Below are positions 2,731 to 63,927 of a stretch of DNA of 64,000 nt, piece after piece. The DNA comes from Naegleria gruberi (Eukaryota): NCBI GenBank assembly GCA_000004985.1, contig GG738851.1. One strand, given 5' to 3'. Position 1 is the first letter of the stretch; each line of letters begins with the position of its first letter. Made by a program: the position numbers and the translations under genes. The notes under the pieces were generated by a model that worked only from the letters and a program-made list of their open reading frames with translations, did no database searches and had not been told where the DNA came from.

Positions 2731-2763
2731 ATCGTTTTATATTTCGCAAATTAAGGTATTGAA

Positions 2764-34131: not shown

Positions 34132-34515
34132 GATGACGCTTTTGTATTTTTTAAAAAATCATCAACACGATGGCTAGGTTAATTATCTCTTAATTAGAGA
34201 CAAATGACCAACTTTAAGGTGTTATACTGGTCCATCGATGAATCATTGTTATGTCAATTTTACAATAAGGTTTTATTTTGAACAATTTCTTAATGTTGAA
34301 AATTGAAGTACAGAGAGTACATTAACATGCATTGTATGGTCATTTGAAAGATGCTGTCTCAGATTCGTTTTTAATAGATCGTTCTCATCCGGTCGAGTTT
34401 TAAATAATCGTTGAAATAAAACATTCGTTGCTGATTCTTAGTGTCATTAAGGATAAAGTAATACGTCAACTTCCGGCCTTAACGGTAATAAACTTAATAA
34501 AACAAAAAAAACGAA

Positions 34516-37365: not shown

Positions 37366-40300
37366 ATGATGTCAAATAACAAGCAAGGAGGAGTTTTAAA
37401 TATCATCTTTTCAATTATTGTATTGTTTGTATTGTGTGGAGTTTTGGCAATTTCTGCTTGCTATGCTATTACACCAGCTGTAGCAGAGCAAATAGTGAAA
37501 AACCAACAACAACAACAACTAAACAACAATAATGAAGATAAGTCTCCCCAAGAATTTACATATATAAAGAACCTGATACATTCGCAAGGTATGTAAAGCA
37601 TTACGAAGAATTCATCTAACCGTACCATTAAAATGTATACACACAATATAATGTTAACAAATCACGTTCTCTAACAAACAACATTTATTTGGAAATTTAA
37701 AGTAGCCGATAGAAATGAATTTTCTAATATTTTAATTGTAAGTATGAGAAATACTAAAGAGTAAATTTTGTTCTAACACACTTGCTTTTTAATAGAATGA
37801 TCAGGACTTTATTGGAAATCAAAGAAGGACGTACCTTCAACAATTTAGAGACAAACTTGTAAATACGCACAAAGGAAAGCTCCATTTTGATATAAAACTT
37901 GATGATGAGGAAGAAGATGACGAAGAGGAAGAAGAAAGTGGAGCTAGTCAGTCTTCCAATCGTCTAAACTATCAACTCTATAATGTTGATGAGGCAGATA
38001 TAATTGACCTCGAACAACAAAAACATGCCCATACTGATGAAGATAATGGAGATGATACAACACAGCTTGATTCCGTATCACTGGTAAGGAGAAATAATAT
38101 TGATGGAACTTCTGGAAGTTCCAGTGGTGATGGCTCAAGCACAACATCAAACCAATCATCAAAGGGCAATGCTGGGATGCCAACTTCAAATACTAATAAC
38201 GCTGAGATTACAAATACAAGAGTCAAGTTACTATTTGATCCACCATCATTAGACTTTGAAGAAAGGTATGTGTTATTATTGAAAAATTTATTTCAACTTT
38301 ATTTATAGACCACTTTGCAATCCTATTGCAAAAACATTTACAATCACTAAAGAGGATGGAGAAGAAGAAGAAGCTCTTCAAATAACATCAGTATCTACAG
38401 AGTCTCTTTTATTCCATCCATCTATTAGTAAGAAAGAAAATAACAAGATAACAATTAATGTTATTTTTCTCCCTAGAATTTTGAAAAGATCTGAAGGAAT
38501 TATTACTATTAATACGAACTTTGGAGTTTTTTCTTTTAAGGCATTTGGTGGAGGTATTGAAAATGCCTATAACATCAAACCAATTCTTGGACACAAATTA
38601 CCTGTTGGTGCTGATTATAGAAAACCTATTTTTATGCATAATCCACATCAAAATGAATCATTATTAATCAAGGAAATTTACACTAGTGAAGACTTTTTAT
38701 TATTGAGTTTACCAGATCAAAATTCAAATGACAAAACTTATAATAAGAAGAATCCACTTTTATCATTATGGAAAATTGAACCTCACCAAACAAAGTCTAT
38801 TATTTTATTGAATTTCCATGCTAATCAACCTAAAAAACATACAGGATTTGTTCATGTTAATACTAATCGTGGACAATTTATTATTCCTGTTGAATTTATT
38901 GTTTCAAAGAGTGGAGTACATCGTATTGTTGATGAAATTGATTTTGGAACTTTCATCTCTGCCAATGAGAAGAGAACTCGTGACATTGTACTCCTTAACT
39001 CATCTCCAAATCCAGTTTTAGTATCTGAAGCATCTATTGCACAAACTGATGCTCAATTAAAGTTAGAATTTACAAAGAATACCCTTCTTCAAGAAGGATC
39101 AATTTCAAGTGTTGCAAAGGTTACTTATACATCTCAGATACAAGGAGAATTTACTGGAAAAATTATTTTCAAGACCAATGATACTACATCAAAGGAAAAT
39201 GCTGGTATTATTGAAGTTCCATACCGTTCTCGTATTATTCATGGAACTTTAGATTATAGAATGAATAGTACAGCTTTTTATTGTGGTGATGGTAAAGAAA
39301 AGGTTAATGAAATGGTATTAATGAATGGATTTGATGTTCCAATCAAGTTCACTTCTGCTGATGTGTTTGATAAGAGATTTACTATTGAAGATTTTACTAC
39401 TGGTTCTATTTTAGAAAAGAATAGCAAGAAGAGAGTACTTTCTATTCGGTTTAATCCAAGTGACAGTTTTTTGATTCACAAGACTAATCTTATCCTCCAT
39501 ACAAATATTACCAGATTGTACATTCCACTTTATAGCTATCATGGCAATTTAGATCATATTCCAATTAATGCTGAGAAGAATATTCTCAACATTGAAGCTG
39601 CCAATGATGGTATTAATATGGGTATTCTTGGTTTGAGCAGTAGAAAGATTCACTACTTTACTGTTTCCAATATGAATCCTGTACCAATCAAAATATTTGA
39701 CTGGAAGGTAACTGGTATGACAAACAAAAAATCAAGCATTTCCATTTCATATGTCAAGATTTACCAACCTGAGGATGATTTGGGCTCTTTAACTCTTATC
39801 AAACCAACAAAATTAAGTGAAAGTATTAATAGCAAGCATGCTGATGGAAACAAGGATTCTTTCATTTTTGCCATTCTTCCAAACCAAAAGATAATTATGA
39901 GATTGGATATTTACACTCCAACTTCAGATGAAGAACAAAATGGTTTTATTGAGTTTGTGACTCAATACAAATCCTTGACCATTCCTCTCAAGTTTATTTG
40001 TATGGAAGGTAGTTTATCCATTACTAATCAATTACCTTTTGATGTTACTTTCCCTGGTAAAATTCAAAAGAAAAATATCTATGCAACTAATACTTTTGGA
40101 AGAACTATTACCATCTCTGAAATCAAGTCATCTGATGAAAGATTCATTCCAGTCATTACTCATAAAACAATTGAGGCAAACCAAAAGATGAACATTGGTT
40201 ATGTAACCTTGGATGCTTCCAAAGTTCCAAAAGAGAAGAATTACATGATGGATGATGGAAAATCTGCAACTAGTACCTCTAGTTACAATAAGAAGTCCTC

Positions 40301-43109
40301 TACCATTTCATCTGAAGAGTTTACCAAGTATAGATGGAGAAATTCTCTATTTGAAGATATTAAGAACGCTGGGGATACTAACATTCTTGGAACAGTTTCA
40401 TTACAAACAGATATTGGAATTAATTATAATATTAATATTTCTACTTCATTGGAATATCCAAAACTTTCCCCAGTACGCCAAATCAACTTTAAACTTACTC
40501 ATATTGGTACAAGTGCGTCACAATACTTGACTGTTGAGAATCCATCTGATCATTTCATTTCTCTTCAATTAATTTTAGGAAATGGATCTCTTGCCAAGTT
40601 TCTTCAAAGAAATGCAAAAGGAAATGTACCAAAAATTGATGGTCAAGGTGACAAATCATATACAGAATTTAGACTTCCAAAAGATGGTATGAATTCTGCC
40701 AATATTCCACCTCATAGACATGCCAATTTAGGTCCAATTATTTTTACTCCAAAATCTGATGCTGCTCCTTCAGTCGCTTATTTATACATTAGAAATAACT
40801 TGACCATTTTTGATATTGTCAAACTTACAGGCAATGGTGGTTCTTCTAAACTCATTTTCAGTGAAAATGGAAACGATCTTGCCTCTCTCAAATTTGAAAT
40901 TAAGGAGTCACAATTGGGAACATGGGACAATTATACAAATAGATTTGTTCAAAATAATTATAGTAGCAATAATGGAAGTGAGGATACCCAAAAGACTGAA
41001 CTAATTTTCCACAAAAAGTTCATATTGCAAAACAAGGGTAATATGCCGGTCACTATTTTAGGTAGTAGTATTGACAATATGGGTTGTAATGCTTATGGTG
41101 TCAAATTACACAAATGTGGCAAATTTGAGTTACAACCTGGACAAACAACTGGTTACAAGATTTCATACAAACCAGATTTTACTACTGCTGTGGTTGATCT
41201 TTTCATAAGAATTGACACAGATCAAGGAAAGTTGTCCTATCCAATTAGATTGACACTTCCTTATAATGTATTGCCATACTTTTATGAAACTCAACCTATC
41301 AGTACTGGCCATAGATTGTTCAGAGTTGCTGCTACATTTATTGTTCTTACATTGGCTCTTTATATTATTTTCAGAGCATGTCGTGAACTCAAGACACTCG
41401 ATTCTGCAGATAATGAATTACCAACTTCAATTACTGATTTCCTCAAACCAAACTTTAGCATTAGCTCATTCCCATTTATTACCTTCCCTTCAATGGATGC
41501 AGAGAAGCATAATCAAAATAAGAATGATGAAGAAAAAGTTTTAAATGCTGAAGAGGAAAACAAGAAGAAGAAGGCCTCCGAAAAGGCTGAAAAGAAGAAG
41601 AAGCCAAAGACTAATCAATCTCCAAGTATTCCAAAATCTGACAAGTCAAAGACCAAGCCAAAACAAACAAAGGCTGCATCCAATCTACAGAATAATACAA
41701 ATGAAGAGGAAGAAAATGCTGACAAGACCATTGTTGAGATTGAATCTACAGGTGACAAGACAAGTGTTGCAGAATCAATAGTGGTAGATCATCCTTCTAC
41801 TCCAAAACAAGGCAGTGCCATTTCAGCACCAACCAGTGTTTTAAAAGAGGAGAAGGAAGAAAAACCTGCTCATAACAATACTATCGTCAGCACAAATAAT
41901 GTTACATTTGAAAATGATGCCAATTCTTCCAATTCACTACTAGAAAAGAATGAAAAGAAGTCAATTTACAAAAAGATTGGCTCAGAGAAAAAGCCACATT
42001 TTGAAAAGAAGACTAATTCCTCATCTAATAAGAAAAAGTTCAATGAAACAGAGGCTAATATCGTTATTAAACCAAAGGCATTTTCAGCAATTCCTACCAA
42101 TATAACCAATAGTAATGAAAAGCCAAAGTTTTATGCTGTCAAGGCTGGTAATGGTGGTGCTGTTGCTGATGCAAACAATACGACTGCCAATGTAACTAAT
42201 AATGGTATTATTGATTTATCTGTCCTCAGCCCTAGCTCTAGAAGTAGAACTCCAAACTCGAACGAAATGGCTAGATTTGGCGGAAGAGAAAATCATCAAA
42301 CACTTTCTACCACTGAACTCTTGAACAATGTTATTGAAACTCCATCCATGAACGATAATGTCAAGACTCGTGAACGTTCCTCATCCGATTCAGCAACCTA
42401 TAAGAATTTATTGGATAATACTACTCCAAATAGTTCTCAATTGTTATTGGACGAAAAGAGTTCCTGTTCAACAGATTTGGGAAGTACTGGAAACTTGAGT
42501 GGACTTTTAAGTGATAGTATGGCACCATCCCCTTCATCAAATTCTCTTATTGAAAATGATGTTTTATCCTTGTTGAGAAGTGCCTCAGTTTCTCCTCCTC
42601 CAATCGGTCAAACAGCAACATCTTCTTCACCAGTTAACAATACAAATCAACATAAGGAACAAGTAGGTGTTATTGGAGGTAATAATAATACTAGAAGAGA
42701 TTTTGGTTTTGGACAAGCAAGTCAACCTTATTGGTACTTTGGGGCAACTCCAGCAGCTAGTAGTAATTCATTCTTTGGACAAGGAAATAACTTTTCTTCT
42801 AATAGTTTGCCTTTTGCTCCAAATCCACAATTCAATGCATTTAATGCTCCACCTGTTGTCAATAGATTGGCTGCTACGTTCCAACATCGTCCAACTAATT
42901 ACTTTTCATTGTTTGATTCTAGACCTAACAGTCTATTCTCTACTGACACTAACAGTTCATTCTTTAGCAATTTGAACCAAAGATCTAACAATAGTAGTCC
43001 ATCAAACAGTGATAGTACAACTGGTACACCAGATGTTACCTCTTCACTATTTTCATATGTGTTACCTGCCGAAGACGCAGGAGATGAACAACAACAACAT
43101 CTCAAATAA
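37366..43109 (+). CDS. TMEM131-like giant type-I membrane protein (signal-anchor, PapD-like/Ig-like beta-rich ectodomain, TM, long Ser/Asn-rich cytoplasmic tail); 4 exons: join(37366..37588,37703..37737,37796..38265,38309..43109)
   Basis: Exon 1 is MMSNNKQGGVLNIIFSIIVLFVLCGVLAISACYA… (signal/anchor). A 35-nt mini-exon (VADRNEFSNILI) is needed to keep frame between the GTATGT donor at 37589 and the exon starting NDQDFIGNQRR at 37796. Exon 3 is acidic and Ser-rich. The GTATGT…TTTATAG intron (38266..38308) joins the 4.8-kb main exon. The ectodomain GIITINTNFGVFSFKAFGGG…FHANQPKKHTGFVHVNTNRGQFIIPVEFIVSKSGVH… matches the TMEM131 N-terminal beta-sandwich region. A TM helix (FRVAATFIVLTLALYIIF) precedes a low-complexity tail. 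Confidence 0.75.
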
Positions 43110-46133: not shown

Positions 46134-49100
46134 TTATTTAAGCATGTAATAAAATCTAGAACCAACTTGATGAATATATCTCAATTGAGGAATTACTACC
46201 ATTAAGAAAATTCCAACCACTGGAATGATAATGGTCAAGTAGCACATCACCTCAAGAGAAGTAGTGGCCAACAATGTAATGAAAATCTGAGAGGCAGCAC
46301 ATGCAACGCACAAAATACTCGTTCTCATGAGCCAATTCTTGTAATAACTACTTCGCATTATGAGCGCAAACAAGTAGAGAAACAATGTTAATACTTCTCC
46401 AATATAGAGTGGTCCAAAAGTGTAGCCAATACCCTCGAATGAAAATCTAGTGTCTGGATGGTTATTCTCCTTTCCAACATTTTCTTCATTCGCAGTATCT
46501 TGATGATCCAAAAAGGCGGAGAATGCAACCAAAAACCAAACAAGCAAGAAACTCATTGCAGCTCCGTATGCAAGCAAGAAGGGAAAGTTTCGTATAGAGA
46601 TGACCCTTAATTGTCTCTTCATGGCTTCAGTTAAATCGTATGAAATGTATTTTCTGAACAAGTAGACAATACTATCCCAAATTGCAATGACGAATAATAA
46701 TCCTGAAATTATTGCTGCAACAAAATAAATAAAACATGGAATTGCAAAAACTCCAAACCATCCACTCACTTCAAATTGAATCATTAAAAAATCTAAAAGT
46801 GTCAAAATCATGACTGGCACGATGAACATTATTCCAATCAAATGGTAAAAGAATGAATGTGAGGTCAATTTCATTTGCAAACGTTTCATGTAAAAGAGTG
46901 TCTTGTCAGCTCCCGTGAGGCCGATTGAATTTTCCTCATAGAATTCTCTTGCAGGAGAGGGAGGATTGATCCAACTCTTAATCCATGCGAGGCAAAGTTG
47001 GAATTCATCCTCATTTTGTCGGGAGGGGAGTAGAGCTTCTGTATCTGTATTTCTTGGTGAGGTCATGTTATCAGGGTTGGAATGAGATGAACTCAACAAC
47101 TTGTTAATTCTCCTGTACAGAACAAAACTGGTAATCCAAACAGCAGTCCAAGTTGGTAAATAAATTACTAGAGACCAGACCCAAAATATCAAAGATGGTG
47201 TATAGTACATTGTTGAGGAAGAAGCAATAACTGGAATGGTAGTAAATATGTACATGAATAAGAAGGTGGTGGCTACAATGGTGCTAAGCATTTCTGGAAA
47301 GGTATTTCTTAGGAGGAATTTAATATTTTCCTTCTTTTCTGGTTTGTCATTCTCAACTATTTTCAGATTCACCAGTCTTTCGTATTCAAATTGTTGAATC
47401 TTTTTCATTTCAATGAATGTATCCTTGAAGAAGCGATACTTTTTAGAGTGAATGTTCAAATCTTTCAATTCTGGATCTTGTAATGATTTTCCATTTCTCT
47501 TCTTTTTACGTGTATTGGTAATTCTATTAGAAGAGAGGAGGTTGGATGGATCCTCTTCTTCCTCCAAACCATCATCATCGAAAATGTTTCTAATATCAAC
47601 CTTGGTTGACATTCTCTTTTGTTTCTTTCTTCTCTTCTTGGCACTATCAATAATATCTTGATTGATAGTGTGAGGAGATGGAATAACCTCAAATTCATCC
47701 TCTACATCTTGATTTTCAGCCAAAGGAGTGGTGGGTACAGCCTCACCAGGTGGTGTAACGGTATTTTGAGGTGCTTCCAATAATTGATTCTCTCCCTCTT
47801 CAGCAATATTGAAATCATCAGGTGGAGAATCTGTACTTTCCTTAATATCGTGACCGAGGAGAGTGTTCGATATTTTGTTTTGTGAAATGTGATGTTCCAA
47901 TTTTTCTGTCAGCGTGTCTGTGGTAGCAGTAATTTTTCTATCGATGGAATTCATAGTGGCCTTTACTGTATTTCTTACAGCACCAGCCCTCTTAGAAATA
48001 GCAGAGGTAAGTTTGGAGCTGAATTGATTGAGATGCTCCAGAGAAAATTGCTTATTGTTAGCCTGAACGACAGCGTCCATAAAAGTATCCTTATCTGGAA
48101 GTAAATAGTCACATAATACTTGAAGCTTCTTACGAATTTCCTCACGTCTTTGTGGTGAAGTGTAGTATGAGGATATCAACTTGTTCAGATCATTCTTATC
48201 AAAAGCTCTAAAGCTCACTGAAAATCTACTCAGATGGAGAAAGAGCATAATAGTTGCCAAGCTCCACATGTCATTATTACAAGAGGCAATGTGCCACTTT
48301 TTACATACTAGACTGATGTTTGCATTTCCTTGGTGAATCCAAATGTGTCTTCTCTTGGCATGATTTACCATAAACCTCTCACATCTATTCTTTAACTTGA
48401 TTTGCTCTTTAATCTTTTGCTTTTCCTTCTTTTTCTGTTCCTTTGAATAGTTGAGAACTTTTTTGGCTCCTTGTTTCACTGTATTGGCAGTAGAATCCTC
48501 CAATAAAATAGAAGAGTCATCCTTAGATTGACCAGAATCTGAGAAATTTTTAGAGAGAAGCAAGGAAATTGAGGGAACTGAAATACTTCTCTTTAGATTT
48601 TTAATTCTCTCAGTTGCACTCCCTACAATCCTATCAGTGTCCACAAACTTTTTATGTCCTAATCCAGCACTCAACCAATCAGAGGTTAATCCGTCATCCT
48701 CTTCAATTTCAAATTCTGAATAATACTTTTTACTATTCCTATTTTCACTTGAATTTTTTCTTTTAGGTATTGTCGGAGTTGTCAAGCTGCCACTCTTAGA
48801 CCCTTCCATCACTAAATCCTCCAATGAATGTGGAGCATTTCGTAACTTATTCCTAGCAGTATTGAGTGCAACCTCTGGATCCTCATCAAACTCCTCATCA
48901 TCCGATTCGGAATCCTCTTGTTCCTCCTTTTCATTTAATTGGTCACACAAGAATGAAAATATATGTGTCAATAATTTAACACTAAGATTATTGATATGTG
49001 GCATGTGTTCTGACAGATCCTTACTACTATCTTGTCTAATTTTGTTCAATTTTTTAACTCCAATCATTGGTATTTGAATGTGTGAAGATTCATAAACAGA

Positions 49101-49514
49101 GGAGGTTCCTATTGATGATGGGTGCTCCTCAATAATAATTTCCTCCGAGTGCATTTGTTGTTGCTGATGATTAATCCTTCCATTCGTTTGATTAGGATAA
49201 ATGAGTGTTGGTCTTGATCGAGCAGTAATTGGTGAAGAGAAAGGAATAGCATACGGATTATAATTACCAACCAATTCCTTCTCATCCATTGGTGTATCAA
49301 CCCAACCAATCTCCACTTGTTCATTCACTCCTCTAGAAGCACCACTAGAATTATTCAAACTGTTCGTACTACTTCCATTCCCTGTAAAGTTATTGTTAGA
49401 TAATTGAAGATGAGGAGGATATTTCTTTTTAATATTGAGAGTAAGTATTTGATCCTCTCCAACACCACTACCACCACTATTATTACTAGTTGTTGTATGA
49501 TGATTTTGTTCCAT
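46134..49514 (-). CDS. Large polytopic membrane protein (1126 aa; Asn/Ser/Glu-rich N-terminal half; C-terminal about 450 aa with about 10 predicted TM helices); function unknown
   Basis: Single exon from ATG 49514 (MEQNHHTTTSNNSGGSGVG…). The middle has acidic clusters, a leucine-rich segment (LSVKLLTHIFSFLCDQL) and K/R-rich stretches. Hydrophobic helices include IVATTFLFMYIFTTIPVIASS, LIFWVWSLVIYLPTWTAVWITSFVLY, FYHLIGIMFIVPVMILTLLDFLMI, GWFGVFAIPCFIYFVAAIISGLLFVIAIW, FPFLLAYGAAMSFLLVWFLVAFSAF, VLTLFLYLFALIM, ILCVACAASQIFITLLATT and LTIIIPVVGIFLMVVIP. Confidence 0.7.
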   Translation of the reverse strand: MEQNHHTTTSNNSGGSGVGEDQILTLNIKKKYPPHLQLSNNNFTGNGSSTNSLNNSSGASRGVNEQVEIGWVDTPMDEKELVGNYNPYAIPFSSPITARSRPTLIYPNQTNGRINHQQQQMHSEEIIIEEHPSSIGTSSVYESSHIQIPMIGVKKLNKIRQDSSKDLSEHMPHINNLSVKLLTHIFSFLCDQLNEKEEQEDSESDDEEFDEDPEVALNTARNKLRNAPHSLEDLVMEGSKSGSLTTPTIPKRKNSSENRNSKKYYSEFEIEEDDGLTSDWLSAGLGHKKFVDTDRIVGSATERIKNLKRSISVPSISLLLSKNFSDSGQSKDDSSILLEDSTANTVKQGAKKVLNYSKEQKKKEKQKIKEQIKLKNRCERFMVNHAKRRHIWIHQGNANISLVCKKWHIASCNNDMWSLATIMLFLHLSRFSVSFRAFDKNDLNKLISSYYTSPQRREEIRKKLQVLCDYLLPDKDTFMDAVVQANNKQFSLEHLNQFSSKLTSAISKRAGAVRNTVKATMNSIDRKITATTDTLTEKLEHHISQNKISNTLLGHDIKESTDSPPDDFNIAEEGENQLLEAPQNTVTPPGEAVPTTPLAENQDVEDEFEVIPSPHTINQDIIDSAKKRRKKQKRMSTKVDIRNIFDDDGLEEEEDPSNLLSSNRITNTRKKKRNGKSLQDPELKDLNIHSKKYRFFKDTFIEMKKIQQFEYERLVNLKIVENDKPEKKENIKFLLRNTFPEMLSTIVATTFLFMYIFTTIPVIASSSTMYYTPSLIFWVWSLVIYLPTWTAVWITSFVLYRRINKLLSSSHSNPDNMTSPRNTDTEALLPSRQNEDEFQLCLAWIKSWINPPSPAREFYEENSIGLTGADKTLFYMKRLQMKLTSHSFFYHLIGIMFIVPVMILTLLDFLMIQFEVSGWFGVFAIPCFIYFVAAIISGLLFVIAIWDSIVYLFRKYISYDLTEAMKRQLRVISIRNFPFLLAYGAAMSFLLVWFLVAFSAFLDHQDTANEENVGKENNHPDTRFSFEGIGYTFGPLYIGEVLTLFLYLFALIMRSSYYKNWLMRTSILCVACAASQIFITLLATTSLEVMCYLTIIIPVVGIFLMVVIPQLRYIHQVGSRFYYMLK

Positions 49515-54468: not shown

Positions 54469-56181
54469 TTATTCTCGAGGTGTGACTGGTGTTTGGAATA
54501 TTGAACAGGAAATCGACTTTTTCATTTCTTCGCATCTGTTGAAATGATCCTTGACCGCTTTGCTTATTCTTTTCAAGTGGCCAAGTTTGGAAATACCAAT
54601 CTTTTTGTAATCTTCGGTAGTAAAGTCTTGAATTTGTCCTAGAGTTTCAAGTTTCTTCTTTTTAAACTTCTTCCAACATTCTTTCATGTCAATCTTGGAA
54701 AGCAGTGATTCTATTGAGGAATTTTCTGGGCAGAATGCTTCCGCATCATGCTTTTCAATCACTTTCTGTAGGAGCAAGTCTCTGTAATCATCTGTGCGTT
54801 TGAATTGAGGGAAAATTTCGTTTTTAAATTGGAGAGAAATGGTAATGTAGAGTTGATCAAGACACTCTGAAAATTTTTCATACATTGATTGCGCTGTCTT
54901 TTCATTAAATTCTTGTGAAATGAGCTCCTTGTAGAGCTGGGAAAATTTATCCCTTATTGTGTGATCAACATTGATGCAATGAGTGCTGTCTATGGAGATG
55001 AACTGAATGTGAACGAGTTGGAATTCTTTCATTTTCAAAAATTCACAAGATAGACTTGTTGCATTGGTAGCAGAGATAAGATTAGTAACTCTAGGTGATT
55101 CAACAGGTGTTCCATCAGTGTTGCTCTCTGTTGGATTGGAACTCTGTTTGCATTGTGCTGCGTTAATTTTCTTAAAGGTCCTAACTACTTCCAGATAGAG
55201 AAGCAATTCTTCATTACATCTCTTCTTCATGAATTCTCTGACCAATTTTCTACCATCCATATCATCAATGAGGGTTTCGATATTGTTAAAGTTATTGATT
55301 ATTTTAGTGGTTTCATCAAAGTCTGAGGTTGAACTCTTTGTCGGCTCCTCAATCAACTCGTCGAATGCTTGGCTTTCAAGTTCTGGAGCAGAATGACTCT
55401 TTGATTTGAGAGAACTGACCGATTTTGATCTTGTGTACTTGCTACCAAGGTAGAAATCATCATCAGCAAACGTTGATCCTTTCGAAACAAACAAATCCAG
55501 TTTGTTTTTCAAAAGTCCAGTGGCTCCATTACTCAATCGTTTCAAACTCTTTGGCGTTGAGAATACACTCGAGAATGTACCATCATTCGTTTCAGTTGGT
55601 GATGGAGCAGATCTAATACTTATTCCAGACACGTTAGTCATAAATTCTGACTCATTGTCTTGCTCTTTCTTAGGGGAAGATTTTACAAAAATATAATTGA
55701 CCTCGCTTGTGTCAGTATTCTTCTTTACATTGGTTGTGATAGCTGGTGATGCTGGAGAGCCACAAGGAGTGCTTCCTTTCGATGAGGGATTTGATCTTAA
55801 TGCATCTCCAACAATGAGAGCTGCCTGATCTAAATAATTTTCCCAAGCATCCAAGTTTATAGAAGCTCTTGCAGATAATGATTGGGAATATCGTTTGGAA
55901 AATCGTCTTGATCTATCTTGTTCCCTTGTTTGAGTTGACTCTTGAGGAAGAAAGGTATTATCATTAGTGGAATCTTGACCTGGAGTTGCATTGTCGAAAT
56001 TCAATGAATTGACACTGTACTGATTATTTACAATATTACTAGTATTGCTTTTGTTTTTGATGAATGTTCCAATGGATGAAGCGACAGACTGGTCTGCTTC
56101 TGAAAAATTGCTTCTCAGAGGCATGTTAAGAGGTCTTTCGAATAGGTTGTATGATGACGATTCAGAATAGAACAATGGCAT
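54469..56181 (-). CDS. RGS-domain protein with C-terminal SAM domain (regulator of G-protein signalling-like), single exon
   Basis: ATG 56181. The N-terminus is Ser/Asn-rich. The RGS-like region is …DGRKLVREFMKKRCNEELLLYLEVVRTFKK…EFLKMKEFQLVHIQ…DKFSQLYKELISQEF…MYEKFSECLDQLYITISLQFKNEIFPQFKRTDDYRDLLL. The C-terminal SAM-like helix bundle is LETLGQIQDFTTEDYKKIGISKLGHLKRISKAVKDHF. Confidence 0.7.
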   Translation of the reverse strand: MPLFYSESSSYNLFERPLNMPLRSNFSEADQSVASSIGTFIKNKSNTSNIVNNQYSVNSLNFDNATPGQDSTNDNTFLPQESTQTREQDRSRRFSKRYSQSLSARASINLDAWENYLDQAALIVGDALRSNPSSKGSTPCGSPASPAITTNVKKNTDTSEVNYIFVKSSPKKEQDNESEFMTNVSGISIRSAPSPTETNDGTFSSVFSTPKSLKRLSNGATGLLKNKLDLFVSKGSTFADDDFYLGSKYTRSKSVSSLKSKSHSAPELESQAFDELIEEPTKSSTSDFDETTKIINNFNNIETLIDDMDGRKLVREFMKKRCNEELLLYLEVVRTFKKINAAQCKQSSNPTESNTDGTPVESPRVTNLISATNATSLSCEFLKMKEFQLVHIQFISIDSTHCINVDHTIRDKFSQLYKELISQEFNEKTAQSMYEKFSECLDQLYITISLQFKNEIFPQFKRTDDYRDLLLQKVIEKHDAEAFCPENSSIESLLSKIDMKECWKKFKKKKLETLGQIQDFTTEDYKKIGISKLGHLKRISKAVKDHFNRCEEMKKSISCSIFQTPVTPRE

Positions 56182-56910: not shown

Positions 56911-57984
56911 ATGAGTTGTAATAAGCATAATATTGAGGACAACACAAATTCTCCTTCAAATTTAGTTTGGCAATCTATTACAAATACCTGCTCCGATACA
57001 GAGAATTTACCATCGGGAGGGGGTATTGCTCATTGTTGTGTCGATCATGAGAGAGTGGCTTTTTTCGGAGGGTTGGGATTGAGGCGATATAATGAATTAT
57101 ATATTTTCAATGTCAATACAAATGAATGGAAAAAAGCCTCTCTTGAAAATGCACCATCAAAGAGGTGTAAAAGTTCAATGTGTTGCTACATAACTGGAAA
57201 CAAGCATAAATTGATAATATTTGGAGGATGGACGAGTGAGGGAAAGACAAATGATATGCATGAGTATTGTATTGAGGATGACAAGTGGAAAGAAGTAAAA
57301 TATGCAAATAATTCAGTTCCTCCTGCAAGAAGTGCTCATCACTGTGCAATCATTGGAAAACATATGATTATTTATGCAGGAATTGGAGCTAAAAAGTTCG
57401 GTGACATGTACAGATTTCATTTGGAAAAGGTATGATTAATTAATATTCGATAATCATAACATGTTTGAATTGTGGTTTTAACCAGAGAGAATGGGAAGAA
57501 GTAATTCAAGTGAATGCTCCACTGCCAAGAAGTTCCTATGGAGGTTTAATAGTATTTAACAAGAATCAAAATCTATTGACCTCATGTGGTTTAGGATGTG
57601 GAAGATACAATGACACTCTATTATTTGATATTCCATCAAGAACTTGGAAGCCCTTAACTTATAAAGGAACTATTCCAACAAAGAGAGGTAGACACTCATG
57701 TGTTCTTGATGATTCCAACAATTGTGTCTATTTGTGGGGAGGATTTAGTAAGTTGTTATTATTGCAAAATTATAGTATTAAACTTGGCAGCTGGAACTGA
57801 GAGATCCAATGAATGTTTTCGTTTCAATCTCCCAACGTATGAATGGTCAATGATAAAGCAAACTAACCCTCCAAACAAACGAGAGAACCAATGCCTTTTC
57901 ATCCTAAACCAAAAACTCTATCTTTATGGTGGCTGGAATGGCTCTGATTTTTATCATGATATGTTCTGTGCAAATCTAGTATAA
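56911..57984 (+). CDS. Kelch-repeat (beta-propeller) protein, 3 exons: join(56911..57429,57486..57747,57791..57984)
   Basis: Repeated kelch signatures: (F)FGG…W, IIFGGW, IIYAGIG, LWGGF and LYLYGGWNG, each followed by W/Y-containing strands. Intron 1 (57430..57485) is GTATGA…AACCAG. Intron 2 has donor GTAAGT at 57748. The acceptor is either CAG at 57788-57790 (43-nt intron, preferred) or TATAG at 57771-57775 (28-nt intron). Both keep frame. Confidence 0.75.
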
Positions 57985-58409: not shown

Positions 58410-61400
58410 ATGAACAACTCAGAGAGAAGGAGCATTGAAATGATGAATTATAATCTTGGCCCTCGTACTGGACCAACGATGCCTCCACCCTCTCCCAATT
58501 CTGTCAGAGCATTAAGGAGAGGTTCTCTGGATCCATCTCTAGCAGGACGACTTCCAAAATCTGCCTCAAGAAACAGTATTCAAGACCCAGAAGCATCACT
58601 CTTCGATAAGGATGACAATCAATCCTCCTTGTCGAAAAGCACCAAGTCAAACCCTTCCGATCCAGTAACAAATTCATCAGTAATGCAAAAATTTGAACAT
58701 GCCATCTTTACTTTTATTTACTCACTAAGGCCCGAAGTTCCAATGCATGGAGCCTTATCATTTTTCATTCATATTTTGATTATATTTCAATCTCTTAGTA
58801 TAGGATCACCGATAGATTTAAATTGGGGATTGTATGGTACTTGGATTGTTAGTATAATAGCCATTTGTCGGAGTTATGGATTTCAGTTTATGAATTATGA
58901 AGCATTTATTGCCTTAGCAATTATTGTCTTCCTCACGCAAATAGCAGTATGCATTGTCATTTATATGACATTTAAGGCCCAACAAGTCGGAAGTAGATAC
59001 TGGGATAAGATCAAAACAGCTGCAAGGGTAATGTTTGCAATAATCTTTTTCATGGCCATACCAACAACCTATGGTTTAATGTTGGGGTTTTGGGAGTGTG
59101 ACTATTCCGCAACTGTGCCCTTAAATGAAACTCCCACCTATGTTCTTGTCAACTTTCCAACAGTAGGATGTTGGTCTGGATTGAATGGCGCATTTGCAGT
59201 CTTGTCAGTAATCTTTCTCATTATTCAAACTGTCTTGGTTGCCTGTTCGATAGCAATCTTTATTAACATTAACATCAAGACAAGGGATTTATTTGTGTTA
59301 GACAACCCTTACATTATAATAATCATTATGGCATCTAATCAAATTTATCTAATTGTTTCCCAAGTCATTCCTGCTTCAATAATTTTCGTTAGACCTATTA
59401 TTTATTTGGCCTTTGCAGTATTGTTTCTTGCCGTGCTATTTTGGATGCAACCTTTCATTCGAAGAGGAACTAATGTTGTTTATGGTGGAGTGGGATTTGC
59501 AAGATTAGCTATTGGAGGTGTATCAATCGCCACAGCTCTGGTAAATCAAACAAATGAATGGGGACTCGGTCTTGGACTAGTTGGTGCTCTTGTGGGAGGA
59601 AGTGCTGTTCTTTTTTCTATTGGTTTAGTGGTGACCGACATTTACACAAGGTACATGCAGCATAAAGGAAGAAAAATTCTTCAAGAATGTGTCCAAAAGA
59701 GATCATTTAATACCTTGACAGATTCCGACCATTATTTTGTCAATATATTTGTCAGATATGCAATGAAAGGAAAAGAAGCTGATATAGACCTTGCAGATTC
59801 ATTTACCAAGTTAGCCATGTCACAAAGATTAGAAATTAATGCCACAAGTATGATAACTTGCGCATTATTCATCAAGTTTATTCTCACTACTAGTTCAGTA
59901 ACTCTTGCCTTAACATTGGTACAAAAATCTCAAAAGAAAGGTGATAACTTTTTTTTGAGATTCATAATCTTTCTCAGAGTGAGAGAAGTCGAAAAGGCTT
60001 CATCAATGGGGAGAAACAATTTTCAATTGGATCACATTATGTCGAGTGTAAAAAAAAAGTTGGAACTTTCAAGGGAGCTACAAGTTCTCTTTTGGAAAAA
60101 TGTCACCATGGAACAAACAAATGACGAAAAGCTTTATAACATTGTCAAAGAAATACAAGAATTGAGTGAAGAATGTTCCATTATTTTCAGCAATTTGCTA
60201 TCAAATTATGCTACTGATGTGGTATGTTGTTATTTTGTGTGATTTTTATAAGTGTCTTCAGACTGTACTGCGAGCATATGCTGCCTTCCTTGAAGATTTC
60301 CTTTTTGATAACATGGCAGCTGCTGAACTTTTGGAGGAGGCTAGTATTATAGAAGAGGAAAACTTTAAAAAGGCTTCTCGAAATTTGGCTAGTAAAAGAC
60401 CTAGTATCACTGGAAGTATTGGTCCTAAGAGGTCAATTTATGAATCTGATCTGAAAATTTCCCTTAGTAGAGGAGGATCACAAGAAGATCTGAATGCTAT
60501 GAATTTTGAATCTGTTAGTAATGAAGATAGAGAAGGTGCACAACAAAATGTTTTTAGGAGCGCTGTCAATAAGAAGGAGGAGCACCAATTTCTTTATATT
60601 TTCATTGCATCTCTTGGATTTGTTGGAATCACCTTTATAATAGTGGTGTTAGTATTGGGTTTAGTCATTTCTCAAACCAGCAGCAAGAATATTACTCTCG
60701 TTGAGAAATCTTGCTCAATATCTTCGTGTAAGTTTGTGTTTTTATTGTAAATTCTAATGATATTAGTACCTTATCTTGTGTTGTCCGATATTAGAAGAAT
60801 TCAGTCAATGATGAGAACATCATCCAACAAAACATATGATTCCTTCATGACCAACCATAAAGAAAGATTAACTGAAGCACTTGATAAGCTTGAGGTTGTA
60901 GAAACATTCCTTAAGGATTCCATTTTCACTGAAACAATGATGGAACACTTTGTCAAGCTCAGCTCAAATATTTTAGTACCAATCATGCAAATTAACTATT
61001 CCGAGCCCCTTCTGTACTCTTCCAAGAATGCTTCTGTTGCTGATTTAGTATCAGTATTTCAGTCAACATCTCAAAAGTACTTCGACCATGGAATAGATCA
61101 TTACAATGTTACCCGTGACAGTTTTGATTTCCTTCTAATTTGTAAGTTTTACTGAACTATTGTTTATAACAAACTCAAGGGAATAACCGACTTGATTTTA
61201 CTCAATCGTTTGAGAAATTTTGCTCTAAATTGATAGCAGATTCTGAGAGTCAAATTTATTCCTTCAGAATTGTCTTCATTGTTGTTATATCTTCATTGGC
61301 TTTTGTTTTTGCGTTATATGTAGTTGTGTATATTATTGTAATTGTTAGGCATTCAACTATTCTTGACAAGACATTGAATATTTTCAAAAAGATTCCAAAA

Positions 61401-63927
61401 GAAGAGAGTTTGAAAGCAATCCATAAACTTGAAACCAACAGCAATAAGATTATAACCCCTAAAGAACATTTTGTCACTCCAAAGAAGGTCATGTTAGTAA
61501 TGGTAGTTTTGAGTTTATTTTTAACCTGTTTAGGAGCTGCTTTGATTGTGTATGAAAGTGTATCCTTTATTGAGGATGGTATGTTTGTTATGCAGAAAGT
61601 CAAGACAGGAAATACCTTCCTGCAAACCCTACAAAGAACAAAGTTCAAGATCTTGGAATTACTGATGACTGATTACGCAGAACTTGGAGTCTCTAGGGAT
61701 CAATTTCATGGTGAAATTAAGCAACATATATCTGATTTGTTTGTTTCATGGAATTCCTTCAGATATGGTGATGAATCTAATGGGTTTCATCCAATTACTG
61801 GTCTTTTAACAGAAGTGGATAAATCAGTTTCAGAACAAAAGAATTGTACAGCAAACGATTTTGCTTGTTATTCGCTTGATGATTTGGTTTTAATATTCCA
61901 AAATGCAGAAAAAGTTAACGACAACATTTATCAACAGATTTACTCCATACAATCTCTTTTGGATCAGTATTCTGTTATTTTCAATGCAGCAATAGCTACA
62001 GATTCAAAGACAGACGGTGTTATTGCGAGCTATGTCAGCTATTTCACAACCAAAACGAATATTTTAACTTCTGTTTTCGCTCCCGTATCCTCCATTCTGC
62101 TACTATTCTTTGTTTACATCATTTACAGTGCGATGAACGGATTTTCAAACGAAGTGCATCAAATCAGAACAATGCTCAATCACTTACCCTGGGAAATTCT
62201 CGATTCCAACTCTGTTTTACATGCCTATGTCATTAATTATTCACTCTCCGTTGGAAACGATAGAGACTCAAAGAAATCTAATGATAATGCCTCAAAAGAA
62301 AAAGCTATTCTTGAGGCAGCTGTAGAGGGAGCAGTCATTTGTTCAACTTATGGTAATATTAATATTTTCAACGAGTCTGCACAAAGAATGTTTGGCTACA
62401 GAGCAGATGAGGTCATTGGTACTCAGCTCTCTGATCTTTTCTCATCAGAAACTAGATCAAAGGTTGACTCTGTAGTTTCTAATGCAATTTCATCAACCTC
62501 TTCCAAGGGTGAGACCATTCCTCTTATTGGACTTAGAAAAAACAAGACACAATTCGCAGCAGTGATTAATATTTCAGTAGCCATTCTTGGTGATGACAAG
62601 AAGGTCATCACTTGTTTTATTAAGGATCAAACAAATGAAAAAAAGAGAGATATTGAACTCGCTGAAGAAAAGAAAAAGTCTGAAGCTCTTTTACTAAATA
62701 TTTTACCAGAAAGTGTCGCTCATCGTTTACAGTCGGGTGAAACGTTCATTGCAGACAAGATTGAGGATTGCACTTGCTTGTTTAGTGACATTGTTGATTT
62801 CAATCTCGTAGCTGCTCAAATGAGTGCCACCGATGTGGTTCAAATGTTGAACATGATTATCAATGGTTATGATTCCCTTATTCCAAGATATAATTTGGAA
62901 AAGATTAAAACTATTGGTGAAAAATATTTTTGTGTTGGTGGCCTTCCAACCCATGGTCAACCATCAACTGACCATGTTGAAGAGGTACTTGGCTTTGCCA
63001 TGGACATTTTCAGCATTATGCACCACTACAATATGGAATTTGGAAGAAAGTTGAATGTAAAAGTTGGTATTCATTCTGGAGGTTTAGTTGCAGGTGTAAT
63101 TGGCACACTCAAATTCGCGTATGATGTAAGTTGTTATTGTGTCTGTAATTGTTCTTAATGAAATTAAGGTTTGGGGAGATGTTATCAATGTTGCAAGTAG
63201 AATGGAGTCCACTTGCCATCCAGGAAGAATTCAAGTAACCAAGGAGACATTTTCAAGACTCAATCATAAATATGAATTCGAGGAAAGGCGAGATGTTTTT
63301 GCTAAAGGTAAAGGATTGATGACAACATATCTTCTCAACAAGATTTATCACCAAGATCCGCTTTCTCTTGAAGTTACTATTGATAGATCAGATATTGAAA
63401 TGGCTGTAAATCAAGCAAATCAAGGAGGTCCTAAGTTCACTGATTTGATTTCGAACGCAAGTCAAGATATTCATTCAGAGACTGACTCTCACCCTCAACA
63501 GGAAATGGCAATAGAAGATGGGCGTTTAGCTGTTGCACCAATTGCAGGCTCAAGAAGAGTAAGATCCCAAAGTGTTAACAGCAATTACAGTAATTTTAGT
63601 TATAACAGTGTTAGTGAACAAAACAATGACAGTCTCAGACCACCAACTTTGCTTACTGGTTCACCAAACCAAGCTTCTCCTCAATCTACGTTAATGTCCT
63701 CACCAAGAATAGATGTTTTACGTTTCAAAAACAATCCTAATAGATACAGTGTCAGTGCTTCGATCACTAGTTTCTTCAGTAACCAGGCAGCTCTCGATCC
63801 AGCGGTGCAACATCACGACCAGTTGGAAACTGCAAGTCATCACTCAATCCACTCACATCACTCTCACTTCTCTCCTCGAAGGAAACTGTTACCAGTCCCT
63901 GAACATGATGAAATATGTGAGCATTAA
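58410..63927 (+). CDS. Polytopic membrane sensor nucleotidyl cyclase: multi-TM N-terminal region + PAS domain + single class III adenylate/guanylate cyclase catalytic domain; 5 exons: join(58410..60221,60262..60731,60795..61141,61237..63125,63169..63927), about 1760 aa
   Basis: Exon 1 has a cytosolic N-terminus followed by about 8–10 hydrophobic helices. Introns are GTATGT (40 nt), GTTTGT (63 nt), GTAAGT (95 nt) and GTAAGT (43 nt), all in frame. Exon 4 adds three more TM helices. Its PAS-like module is ILEAAVEGAVICSTYGNINIFNESAQRMFGYRADEVIGTQLSDLF…GETIPLIGLRKNKTQFAAVINISVAI…ITCFIKDQT. The cyclase homology domain begins LLNILPESVAHRLQSGETFIADKIEDCTCLFSDIVDFNLVAAQMSATDVVQMLNMIINGYDSLIPRYNLEKIKTIGEKYFCVGGLP…KVGIHSGGLVAGVIGTLKFAYDV, and continues across the last intron as WGDVINVASRMESTCHPGRIQVTKETFSRL. 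The tail is Ser/His-rich. Confidence 0.85.

What the first reader, a model, noticed from the sequence alone, without database searches (positions are those of the whole stretch)
58410..63927. Polytopic PAS-domain sensor cyclase with a single catalytic domain and Asp-to-Glu substitution at a metal-binding position
Five in-frame exons assemble a large protein of roughly 1760 aa. It has (i) a cluster of about 8–10 TM helices, (ii) a second set of three TM helices, (iii) a PAS-like fold, and (iv) one class III cyclase homology domain. The domain has FSDIVDF (first metal Asp) and the HSGGLVAGVIG / WGDVINVASRMES motifs (Asn and Arg present). The second metal-binding motif reads KIKTIGEKYFCVGG where KTIGDAYM is expected, that is Glu in place of the conserved Asp. 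A single catalytic domain implies a homodimeric enzyme, as in protist and bacterial-type sensor cyclases. The TM+PAS input modules suggest direct ligand, redox or light sensing. The D-to-E change could alter metal preference or indicate a regulatory pseudo-cyclase. Base-specifying residues were not resolvable by eye, so AC versus GC is open.
Basis: partly seen in the sequence, partly recalled or inferred. Interest (0 to 1): 0.65.

Follow-up and report, generated by a model that had tools for sequence, protein, structure and literature searches.

The report
Half-degenerate amoeba sensor adenylate cyclase subunit
This is an intact gene from a Naegleria-like amoeba (Heterolobosea) for a large membrane sensor with one adenylate cyclase domain; its metal-binding half is degenerate and its substrate-binding half is intact, so it most likely works only when paired with a complementary sister protein, as the two halves of a mammalian adenylate cyclase do.

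Summary
Window 58410-63927 (+) is one five-exon gene. I move one intron boundary: intron 3 is 38 nt, not 95, which gives 1785 aa. The order is about 10 TM helices, a TmcB-type helical repeat, 4 TM helices with two ecto-loops, PAS, a transducer helix and one class III cyclase domain.

Glu1465 aligns without gaps to the second metal Asp (Rv1625c D300, AC5 C1 'GDCYY'). No Asp lies next to it. Lys1461 and Asp1533 make it an adenylate-type domain. Asn1540, Arg1544 and KGKG are intact.

The gene belongs to a Heterolobosea family. Its closest named orthologue is Naegleria fowleri FDP41_009812 (48% identity over 1627 aa). It sits in an eight-member clade (99% bootstrap) where this position is Glu (5) or Ser (3) and never Asp; 242 of 250 homologue motifs have Gly-Asp. 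The clade also lost the Thr of 'GFT' but kept every C2-type residue.

A second clade of three members has the opposite defect: Asn to Thr/Ile and Arg to Lys, with both metal Asp intact. It co-occurs with the Glu type in Willaertia magna and in one metagenome.

Best reading (confidence 0.5): a C2-like subunit of a two-gene heterodimeric cyclase, not a homodimer. The partner was not found in this window or in Naegleria. Nothing here was tested biochemically.

The parts
58410..63927 (+). Whole gene: 5 exons, 1785 codons plus TAA. Exons 58410-60221, 60262-60727, 60767-61141, 61180-63125, 63169-63927.
   Evidence: frame, GT..AG introns of 40/39/38/43 nt. (48% identity, 2% gaps over 1627 aa with N. 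fowleri FDP41_009812).
61142..61179 (+). Intron 3, revised to 38 nt (GTAAGT...CAAG). The 95-nt alternative deletes 19 conserved residues.
   Evidence: Family consensus FLFLWxNRxxxxxxFExFC.
58410..58667 (+). N-terminal Ser/Pro-rich tail, aa 1-86, predicted disordered.
   Evidence: pLDDT below 50 for residues 1-86.
58668..59699 (+). Polytopic membrane domain, aa 87-430: 9-10 TM helices and an ecto beta-hairpin (230-246) flanked by near-invariant Cys230 and Cys254 and carrying an NET sequon.
   Evidence: Hydropathy scan. AF2 model with pLDDT 84.5 and pTM 0.79. Conserved columns. No solved structural relative.
59721..60363 (+). Cytosolic helical-repeat region, aa 438-638, spanning intron 1. Pfam TPR_TmcB covers aa 541-638.
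   Evidence: PF25474, E 2e-10, 41.1 bits against a cut-off of 27. (paired helices 438-599).
60613..60669 (+). TM11, aa 722-740.
   Evidence: hydropathy 3.05.
60670..61268 (+). Ecto-loop 1, aa 741-914, spanning introns 2 and 3. It has five N-x-S/T sequons.
61269..61325 (+). TM12, aa 915-933.
61494..61550 (+). TM13, aa 990-1008.
61551..62066 (+). Ecto-loop 2, aa 1009-1180: predicted helical-bundle sensor-like domain with an NCT sequon and family-invariant Cys1114.
   Evidence: long helices continuous with TM13 and TM14, pLDDT about 80-90. (invariant Cys)..
62067..62123 (+). TM14, aa 1181-1199.
62304..62633 (+). PAS domain, aa 1260-1369. The FixL-type heme His is absent and no LOV-type Cys motif is visible.
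   Evidence: PAS_9 E 1.6e-12, PAS E 2.2e-11. (FixL E 1e-6, His aligns with Val). (PAS fold in the model).
62634..62753 (+). Linker or cyclase-transducer helix, aa 1370-1409 (ELAEEKKKSEALLLNILPESVAHRL).
   Evidence: helix, model residues 485-507. It aligns to the helical segment before the CHD of AC5, AC9 and Rv1625c.
62754..63339 (+). Class III cyclase homology domain, aa 1410-1590, spanning intron 4.
   Evidence: PF00211, E 1e-52. (tmAC and Rv1625c structures, E 1e-48 to 1e-60).
62787..62804 (+). Beta1/P-loop motif FSDIVDFN. Asp1421 is the first metal Asp and is kept. Asn1426 replaces the Thr of 'GFT'.
   Evidence: The Thr is lost in all 8 clade members and kept in nearly all other homologues.
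62907..62921 (+). K-T-I-G-E. Lys1461 is the adenine-specifying Lys (equivalent to Rv1625c K296). Glu1465 (GAA) stands in place of the second metal Asp (equivalent to D300).
63123..63125 (+). Asp1533, the adenine-specifying Asp of YDxWG. It is the last codon of exon 4.
63187..63201 (+). N-V-A-S-R. Asn1540 and Arg1544 are the transition-state residues and are intact.
63340..63927 (+). C-terminal low-complexity Ser/Asn/His-rich tail (aa 1591-1785) and the stop codon.

Best explanation
The gene encodes a membrane sensor adenylate cyclase subunit of a Heterolobosea-specific family. Its cyclase domain plays the role of the C2 half of a mammalian adenylate cyclase. It supplies the adenine-binding Lys1461 and Asp1533, the transition-state Asn1540 and Arg1544, and the KGKG lysine to an active site at a dimer interface. 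The two metal-binding aspartates and the P-loop Thr of that site come from a different partner cyclase domain. The likely partner is the sister 'K-type' paralogue (metal Asp pair intact, Asn to Thr/Ile, Arg to Lys) where one exists, or otherwise a canonical paralogue. The second, pseudo-symmetric site is built from this protein's Asp1421 and Glu1465 plus the partner's Lys/Asp. It would bind ATP and metal poorly or without turnover and may act allosterically. Signals from the two ecto-loops and/or the 10-TM domain would pass through the PAS domain and the transducer helix to set the geometry of the dimer. Shown here: the domain architecture, the residue identities, clade-wide conservation of the pattern, and co-occurrence of complementary paralogues in two other organisms. 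Inferred: heterodimerisation, which site is catalytic, the allosteric role, and the signal path.
For: (1) Glu1465 sits exactly at the second metal Asp. Gly-Asp is present in 242 of 250 homologue motif instances.
(2) The gene falls in an 8-member clade with 99% bootstrap: ours, two metagenome sequences, W. magna P0128, N. fowleri P0333 and P0220, N. gruberi P0136 and P0341. The position there is Glu in 5 and Ser in 3, never Asp. The preceding Gly drifts to Gln or Ser, and the Thr of GFT is lost in all 8. One member (P0008) also has Gly at the first metal Asp.
(3) Wherever the gene model allows reading, all clade members keep Lys, Asp (YDxW), Asn, Arg and KGKG.
(4) The CHD evolves about as slowly as a canonical one. 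Willaertia-Naegleria identity is 62% for this type and 68% for a canonical pair.
(5) A separate 3-member clade with 100% bootstrap has FSDxxxFT and KTIGDAYF intact, but WGETVIVGSKMES, WGDTVTLANKMES or WGENVTLASKMES. Asn becomes Ile/Thr and Arg becomes Lys in 3 of 3, and KGKG is degenerate in 2 of 3. Asn..Arg is present in 243 of 250 motifs overall.
(6) Both types occur in W. magna on one contig about 89 kb apart. Both also occur in ENA sample ERZ27315067, which holds the closest relative of our gene.
(7) Similarity to solved structures is reciprocal. Our CHD scores C2 above C1 for AC5 and AC9 (about 110 against 95 bits). The K-type scores C1 above C2 (111 against 97 bits). The mammalian C1 motif WSNDVTLANHME resembles the K-type motif.
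(8) There is an experimental precedent. Rv1625c D300A and R376A are each inactive and complement each other in a heterodimer (PMC4821796). The chytrid RGC1/NeoR single-CHD proteins form heterodimers with one catalytic site (PMC12264004).
Against: No K-type partner lies in the 58 kb upstream of the gene, and the window ends 73 nt after it, so the partner is unproven for this organism. No K-type was found in Naegleria, although three Glu/Ser-type lineages exist there. The pairing therefore cannot be universal. Asp1421 and a carboxylate at position 1465 persist in most clade members, which would not be needed for a pure C2 role. Arg to Lys in the K-type is conservative. The CHD tree does not resolve the two clades as sisters. 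Co-occurrence in a metagenome is not proof of one organism.
Confidence: 0.5

Rival explanations
1. It is a homodimeric adenylate cyclase in which Glu1465 still coordinates metal B. It would be an active enzyme with altered metal preference (for example Mn over Mg) or low basal activity suited to tight sensor control.
For: There is a single CHD, and all residues other than the second metal position are canonical in this particular protein, including Asp1421. Glu is the commonest residue in the clade (5 of 8), which suggests some selection for a carboxylate. The CHD is under purifying selection. Most family members look like ordinary homodimers. From general knowledge, the related GGDEF fold tolerates Asp or Glu at its metal position.
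Against: The closest named orthologue (N. fowleri P0333) and two N. gruberi members have Ser, which cannot replace a metal carboxylate. The adjacent Gly and the P-loop Thr are lost across the clade, and the closest relative P0008 has Gly at the first metal Asp. So the whole half-site, not one residue, is relaxed. Asp is otherwise nearly invariant (242 of 250). Rv1625c D300A is inactive. I found no published Asp-to-Glu test.
Confidence: 0.28
2. It is a catalytically dead pseudo-cyclase. The CHD would serve only as a dimerisation, scaffold or nucleotide-binding module, and the protein would signal by other means or titrate active paralogues.
For: The metal half-site is degenerate across the clade. 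The family is large and recently expanded in Heterolobosea: at least 81 cyclases in Naegleria (PMC9928731). That leaves room for non-catalytic members.
Against: Lys, Asp, Asn, Arg and KGKG are retained in all readable clade members over the Naegleria-Willaertia divergence, and the CHD is nearly as conserved as canonical ones. A dead domain would be expected to lose these residues too, as the K-type lost Asn and Arg.
Confidence: 0.12
3. It is an artefact: a sequencing error at codon 1465, a mis-spliced model, or two adjacent genes fused by the reader.
For: One intron boundary in the simplest model was indeed wrong. Some public models of relatives are truncated or fused by intron read-through.
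Against: Glu is encoded at the same position in independent contigs from other organisms. The revised model is collinear with a 1799-aa N. fowleri protein. TM12-14, PAS and most of the CHD share one uninterrupted exon.
Confidence: 0.02

Closest known systems
Mammalian membrane adenylate cyclases (AC5 C1 with AC2 C2; AC9), the class IIIa pseudo-heterodimer
   Same: The division of labour is the same. One CHD keeps the two metal Asp and the GFT Thr but has Thr/His in place of Asn/Arg (C1, 'WSNDVTLANHME'). The other keeps Lys, Asp, Asn, Arg and KGKG but has Ser/Ala in place of the metal Asp (C2, 'FASIxNFS', 'KTIGSTYMA'). Our CHD scores higher to C2, and the K-type paralogue scores higher to C1. 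The transducer helix lies before the CHD.
   Different: Here the two CHD types are on separate polypeptides. Each carries about 14 TM helices, a TmcB-type repeat and a PAS domain, instead of 2 x 6 TM in one chain. Our protein still has Asp at the first metal position and Glu (not Ser) at the second. In the tree both clades group with the other heterolobosean family members, so the split may be independent of the metazoan one; the deep nodes are poorly supported.
Mycobacterium tuberculosis Rv1625c/Cya (homodimeric class IIIa AC) and its D300A + R376A complementing mutants
   Same: It has a single CHD per chain, is membrane anchored and is of the Lys/Asp ATP type. The E-value is 1e-47 to 1e-48. 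The natural Glu/Ser-type and K-type variants hit exactly the D300 and R376 (plus N372) positions, whose alanine mutants complement in trans.
   Different: Rv1625c is a canonical 6-TM homodimer without a PAS domain. The complementing pair there is engineered, not natural.
Heterodimeric single-CHD cyclases: soluble guanylate cyclase alpha/beta and the chytrid rhodopsin-guanylyl cyclases RGC1/RGC2 with NeoR
   Same: Two separately encoded sensor-cyclase subunits form one catalytic and one non-catalytic, modulatory site (PMC12264004).
   Different: Those are GTP-specific (Glu/Cys) and sense through heme or rhodopsin. In RGC1/NeoR both subunits keep the metal Asp pair. Here the specificity is for ATP and the sensors are TM/ecto/PAS modules with unknown ligands.
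Uncharacterised heterolobosean orthologues: N. fowleri FDP41_009812 and FDP41_000410, N. gruberi NAEGRDRAFT_73533 and _60042, W. magna ABK040_006184
   Same: They share the full-length architecture and the clade. FDP41_009812 is 48% identical over 1627 aa.
   Different: They are annotated only as hypothetical or 'guanylate cyclase domain-containing' proteins. The second metal residue varies (Glu or Ser). None has been studied.
Cyanobacterial PAS-CHD adenylate cyclases
   Same: The PAS + transducer helix + CHD module is 35-53% identical to ours in BLASTP local alignments; against one of them, P0036, our CHD alone is about 45% identical.
   Different: They are soluble or have a simple anchor, keep all six catalytic residues and are presumed homodimers.

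Membership tests
Class III nucleotidyl cyclase (cyclase homology domain, PF00211) | Sequence match to the CHD profile above the curated threshold | tested here: met
   178.9 bits against a cut-off of 21.9, covering 179 of 183 profile positions. E 1e-60 to solved tmACs.
Class III nucleotidyl cyclase (cyclase homology domain, PF00211) | First metal-binding Asp (beta1; Rv1625c D256, AC5 C1 'FADIEGFT') | tested here: met
   Asp1421 in FSDIVDFN.
Class III nucleotidyl cyclase (cyclase homology domain, PF00211) | Second metal-binding Asp (beta2-beta3; Rv1625c D300, AC5 C1 'LGDCYY') | tested here: not met
   Glu1465 in a gapless alignment. The clade has Glu or Ser, never Asp.
Class III nucleotidyl cyclase (cyclase homology domain, PF00211) | Transition-state Asn and Arg (Rv1625c N372/R376; AC2 C2 N1025/R1029) | tested here: met
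   Asn1540 and Arg1544 in WGDVINVASRMES.
Class III nucleotidyl cyclase (cyclase homology domain, PF00211) | Dimerisation and cyclisation of a nucleoside triphosphate | not testable with these tools
   This needs expression and a cAMP/cGMP assay.
Adenylate (not guanylate) cyclase specificity | Lys and Asp at the two base-specifying positions (Glu and Cys/Ser in guanylate cyclases) | tested here: met
   Lys1461 of KTIGE aligns to the Lys of C2 'IKTIG'. Asp1533 of YDVWG aligns to the Asp of C2 'YDIWG'.
C2-like (trans-acting) subunit of a C1/C2-type heterodimeric cyclase | Metal/phosphate half-site degenerate while Lys, Asp, Asn, Arg and the KGKG Lys are conserved | tested here: met
   The pattern holds across the 8-member clade. 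In our protein the degeneracy is partial (Asp1421 kept, Glu1465, Thr to Asn1426).
C2-like (trans-acting) subunit of a C1/C2-type heterodimeric cyclase | A complementary C1-like partner (Asp pair intact, Asn/Arg lost) encoded in the same genome | tested here: inconclusive
   Present in W. magna and in sample ERZ27315067. Not found in this window, and the rest of this genome is not available. Not found in Naegleria.
C2-like (trans-acting) subunit of a C1/C2-type heterodimeric cyclase | Physical heterodimer with one catalytic site | not testable with these tools
   No multimer prediction or biochemistry was available.
Mammalian-type tmAC (2 x 6TM, C1 and C2 in one chain) | Two CHDs and two 6-TM bundles in one polypeptide | tested here: not met
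   There is one CHD and about 14 TM helices arranged 10 + 4.
Heterolobosean TmcB-repeat / PAS / CHD cyclase family | Collinear full-length similarity and the same domain order as named members | tested here: met
   (48% over 1627 aa). (the same Pfam set in relatives). (only 92 relatives of exon 1 among 1.84 billion representatives); all but one of those that carry a name (18 of the 92 were looked up) are Heterolobosea; the exception is a weak hit (E 2e-7) from Cyanophora paradoxa.
FixL-type heme PAS sensor | Proximal heme-ligating His in the F-alpha helix (BjFixL His200) | tested here: not met
   FixL is the best solved relative (E 1e-6), but 'RSRHDSY' aligns with 'RSKVDSV', so Val replaces His. 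That this His is His200 rests on my knowledge of BjFixL.
LOV (flavin) PAS photosensor | Conserved Cys motif (GxNCRFLQ) | tested here: not met
   Direct reading of the PAS sequence. No LOV structure appears among the PDB hits.

The most novel reading that the evidence does not exclude
Some Heterolobosea have evolved, possibly independently of animals, a two-gene C1/C2-type adenylate cyclase. A Glu/Ser-type subunit (this gene) and a K-type subunit each carry their own 14-TM, ecto-domain and PAS sensor, and together form a single catalytic site plus a degenerate ATP-binding regulatory site. cAMP would then be made only when two different receptors pair, which amounts to a built-in coincidence detector.
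Probability: 0.35. Interest if true: 0.65.

Novelty: new variant of a known kind. Interest (0 to 1): 0.5.

Why it matters
Class III cyclases form their active sites across a dimer interface. Animals fused two diverged halves (C1 and C2) into one chain, and how that asymmetry arises is usually inferred from engineered mutants of a bacterial homodimer.

The heterolobosean family offers natural intermediates in one gene family: canonical single-domain members, a clade with a decaying metal half-site (this gene, still at the Asp/Glu stage), and a clade with a decaying transition-state half-site. If the two pair, this would be a possibly independent origin of the C1/C2 design. It would also give a receptor-receptor heterodimer whose output needs two sensors.

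The idea can be tested directly by co-expression. It also bears on Naegleria and Willaertia signalling, where dozens of such cyclases remain uncharacterised. The practical lesson for annotation is that a single cyclase domain does not imply a homodimer.

Tried and rejected
- Exact look-ups of the spliced protein and of the neighbouring RGS ORF found nothing. This genome's proteins are not in the collection, so the organism could only be placed by homology.
- The restricted tools refuse the spliced protein, so single exons were used instead.
- The first whole-protein homology search was swamped by TM low-complexity words and gave only 7 hits. Domain-wise searches worked.
- A literature search for TmcB returned only unrelated acronyms.
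- Searches for a published Asp-to-Glu test at this position found nothing usable.
- Nothing was found on Naegleria cyclase heterodimers.
- A search with the K-type PAS+CHD found no K-type orthologue in Naegleria. A metagenome scan gave two weak PAS-only loci.
- The first bootstrap tree timed out and was redone with a faster distance routine.
- Gly to Asp in 'GFT' (FSDIVDF) was considered as a further defect and rejected, because Asp or Asn there is common in canonical cyanobacterial homologues.
- The hydrophobic stretch 486-504 was rejected as a TM helix because it lies inside the helical repeat of the AF2 model.
- No second cyclase domain exists in the window.

Full report
**What is there**

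The window is AT-rich eukaryotic DNA (about 34% G+C). From ATG 58410 to TAA 63925-63927 on the + strand, four short GT..AG introns join five exons into one open frame.

The simplest model gives 1766 aa and uses a 95-nt third intron. Relatives carry about 20 more residues at that junction. A 38-nt intron (61142-61179, GTAAGT..CAAG) restores WNNRLDFTQSFEKFCSKLIA and makes all four introns 38-43 nt.

The revised 1785-aa protein aligns end to end with Naegleria fowleri FDP41_009812. Identity is 48% over 1627 residues with 2% gaps, and the alignment runs across every exon junction. TM12-14, the PAS domain and most of the cyclase domain lie in one 648-codon exon. The sensor and cyclase parts therefore cannot belong to different genes.

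**Architecture**

- Pfam finds Guanylate_cyc (E 1e-52), PAS/PAS_9 (E about 1e-12) and TPR_TmcB (E 2e-10).
- An AlphaFold2 model of exon 1, built on 37 family sequences, has pLDDT 84.5 and pTM 0.79. It shows a disordered N-terminus (1-86), then 9-10 membrane helices, an ecto beta-hairpin flanked by two near-invariant cysteines, and cytosolic paired helices from 438 to 599.
- Four further TM helices follow: 722-740, 915-933, 990-1008 and 1181-1199. They bound two ecto-loops. The first carries five N-glycosylation sequons. The second is modelled as a helical bundle continuous with TM13 and TM14 and holds the family-invariant Cys1114.
- Next come the PAS domain (1260-1369), a transducer helix (ELAEEKKKSEALLLNILPESVAHRL) and the cyclase homology domain (1410-1590).
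Four are needed for both flanking cytosolic modules to lie on the same side of the membrane.
- The PAS domain is closest to FixL heme-PAS structures (E 1e-6), but the heme-ligating His aligns with Val, and I saw no LOV-type Cys motif. No cofactor can be inferred, so the claim of redox or light sensing is unsupported.

**The catalytic residues**

Against solved tmACs and Rv1625c, the domain aligns without gaps through all catalytic motifs.

| Role | Residue in this protein | State |
|---|---|---|
| First metal Asp | Asp1421 | kept |
| Second metal Asp ('LGDCYY' of AC5/AC9 C1; Ser/Ala in C2) | Glu1465 (GAA, 62919-62921) | replaced |
| Adenine-specifying pair | Lys1461, Asp1533 | kept |
| Transition-state pair | Asn1540, Arg1544 | kept |
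| KGKG lysine | present | kept |
| Thr of the 'GFT' phosphate loop | Asn1426 | replaced |

Asp at the Gly position of 'GFT' is common in canonical cyanobacterial homologues and is not a defect.

Asn..Arg is present in 243 of 250.

**Who else has it**

An exhaustive search with exon 1 found only 92 relatives among 1.84 billion cluster representatives. Eighteen of them were looked up by name. The named ones are from Heterolobosea: Willaertia magna, Naegleria gruberi, N. fowleri, N. lovaniensis, Acrasis kona and Pharyngomonas kirbyi. The one exception is a weak hit (E 2e-7) from Cyanophora paradoxa. The window therefore comes from an unannotated heterolobosean.

Most family members carry all six canonical residues. 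In a neighbour-joining tree of the PAS+CHD region, our gene falls in an eight-member clade with 99% bootstrap support:

| Member | Second metal motif |
|---|---|
| Our gene | KTIGEKYF |
| Metagenome P0008 | KTIGEKYF |
| Metagenome P0009 | KTVGEKYF |
| W. magna P0128 | KTIQEKYF |
| N. fowleri P0220 | KTISEKYF |
| N. fowleri P0333 | KTIQSHYF |
| N. gruberi P0136 | KTIQSKYF |
| N. gruberi P0341 | KTIGSKYF |

. The position is Glu in five members, Ser in three and Asp in none. The preceding Gly drifts, and the P-loop Thr is lost in all eight. P0008, the closest relative of our gene, also has Gly in place of the first metal Asp.

Wherever the public gene model allows it to be read, Lys, Asp, Asn, Arg and KGKG are kept. 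The domain is not decaying as a whole. Willaertia-Naegleria CHD identity is 62% in this clade and 68% for a canonical orthologue pair.

**The complementary clade**

W. magna P0131 is about as close to our protein outside the CHD as the Glu-type P0128 (33-36% identity). It keeps FSDIVQFT and KTIGDAYF but reads FDLWGETVIVGSKMES.

I reconstructed two orthologues from metagenome contigs. L006 reads YDLWGDTVTLANKMES and L007 reads YDLWGENVTLASKMES. In all three, Asn becomes Thr or Ile and Arg becomes Lys. KGKG is degenerate in two of them. They form a clade with 100% bootstrap support.

This is the mirror image of our clade, and it resembles the mammalian C1 motif WSNDVTLANHME. The similarity scores are reciprocal:

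| Query | AC9 C1 (bits) | AC9 C2 (bits) |
|---|---|---|
| Our CHD | 95.4 | 109.5 |
| K-type P0131 CHD | 111.1 | 97.0 |

AC5 gives the same direction for our CHD (94.2 for C1 against 110.7 for C2).

Both types occur in W. magna on one contig about 89 kb apart. Both also occur in ENA sample ERZ27315067, whose contigs have similar G+C content. The two clades share a 'TLKF' motif where canonical members have 'KKF'.

**Interpretation**

In class III cyclases the metal Asp pair comes from one subunit, and Lys, Asp, Asn and Arg come from the other. Rv1625c D300A and R376A are each inactive but complement each other in a heterodimer (PMC4821796, citing Guo et al. 2001). Chytrid RGC1/NeoR shows that separately encoded single-CHD sensors can form a heterodimer with one catalytic and one modulatory site (PMC12264004).

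The comparative pattern therefore favours reading this protein as a C2-like subunit. Its working partner would supply the Asp pair. That partner would be the K-type paralogue where it exists, or otherwise a canonical family member. Its own Asp1421/Glu1465 site would be a non-catalytic, possibly ATP-binding, pseudo-site. I put this at 0.5.

The main weaknesses are these:
- The partner is not in the window, and the rest of the genome is unavailable.
- No K-type was found in Naegleria, despite three Glu/Ser-type lineages there.
- Retention of Asp1421 and of a carboxylate at 1465 in most members hints at residual metal binding.

The rivals are as follows:
- A homodimer with a Glu-coordinated metal (0.28). 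The Ser variants and the clade-wide loss of the neighbouring Gly and Thr weaken it.
- A dead pseudo-cyclase (0.12). Conservation of all trans-acting residues weakens it.
- An artefact (0.02). Independent contigs and the collinear orthologue refute it.

**Novelty**

The gene itself is a new member of a family already present in public Naegleria and Willaertia annotations as hypothetical or 'cyclase domain-containing' proteins. The large cyclase repertoire of Naegleria is known (PMC9928731). I found no description of the two complementary degenerate clades or of heterodimeric cyclases in Heterolobosea. I rate it a new variant of a known kind. Interest is moderate, and it would rise if co-expression shows obligate pairing.

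Noticed in passing
L004 (W. magna JBEGDK010000002.1), L006 (ERZ27315067 k141_1555021) 4881-6035, L007 (ERZ929261 k127_461200) 2475-3660: This is a three-member 'K-type' clade of the same cyclase family. The metal Asp pair is intact, but Asn becomes Thr/Ile and Arg becomes Lys (WGDTVTLANKMES and similar), which resembles mammalian C1. It is complementary to the Glu/Ser clade of the finding.
   Followed up: yes
P0136 (N. gruberi NAEGRDRAFT_60042, 2426 aa); P0001, P0008, P0009, P0138: Public gene models of several relatives are truncated or fused where short introns were read through. For example, N. gruberi P0136 runs from the CHD into about 900 unrelated residues. Catalytic motifs at such junctions cannot be read from the deposited proteins alone.
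   Followed up: partly
P0183 (Pharyngomonas kirbyi transcript GECH01000871): A deep-branching heterolobosean family member outside the Glu/Ser clade has Thr at the first metal Asp (FATIEKFS) and Glu at the second (KTIGETYF), with Asn and Arg intact. This may be an independent C2-like degeneration.
   Followed up: partly
P0202 (Cyanophora paradoxa, 874 aa): A glaucophyte protein is the one named hit to the exon-1 region (TM domain and helical repeat) from outside Heterolobosea (E 2e-7). By eye it continues into PAS-like sequence and shows no cyclase motif; no domain scan was run on it. The membrane module may therefore not be restricted to Heterolobosea or to cyclases.
   Followed up: no
[not shown]
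   Followed up: partly
window 54469-56181 (-): A single-exon 570-aa ORF holds an RGS domain and a C-terminal SAM domain. It lies directly upstream of the kelch and cyclase genes and may be a G-protein signalling regulator.
   Followed up: no
window 56911-57984 (+): A multi-exon kelch-repeat (KLHDC2/KLHL20-like beta-propeller) gene lies between the RGS gene and the cyclase.
   Followed up: no
window 16702-28863 (-): A 4053-aa uninterrupted ORF has a C-terminal UBR4-type E3 ubiquitin ligase domain (E 1e-176). That is unusually long for a single exon.
   Followed up: no
window 38481-43109 (+), 12458-14272 (+), 30802-33123 (-): Other neighbours are a TMEM131-like Ig-domain protein, a zuotin-type DnaJ protein with a C2H2 finger, and a C2-domain protein kinase. 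Several long ORFs have no Pfam match: 46134-49514 (-), 34428-36686 (+), 6182-7378 (-) and 10068-11513 (+).
   Followed up: no
window 62304-62633 (PAS): The PAS domain's nearest solved relatives are FixL oxygen-sensing heme domains, yet the heme-binding His is replaced by Val. The ligand, if there is one, is unknown.
   Followed up: partly
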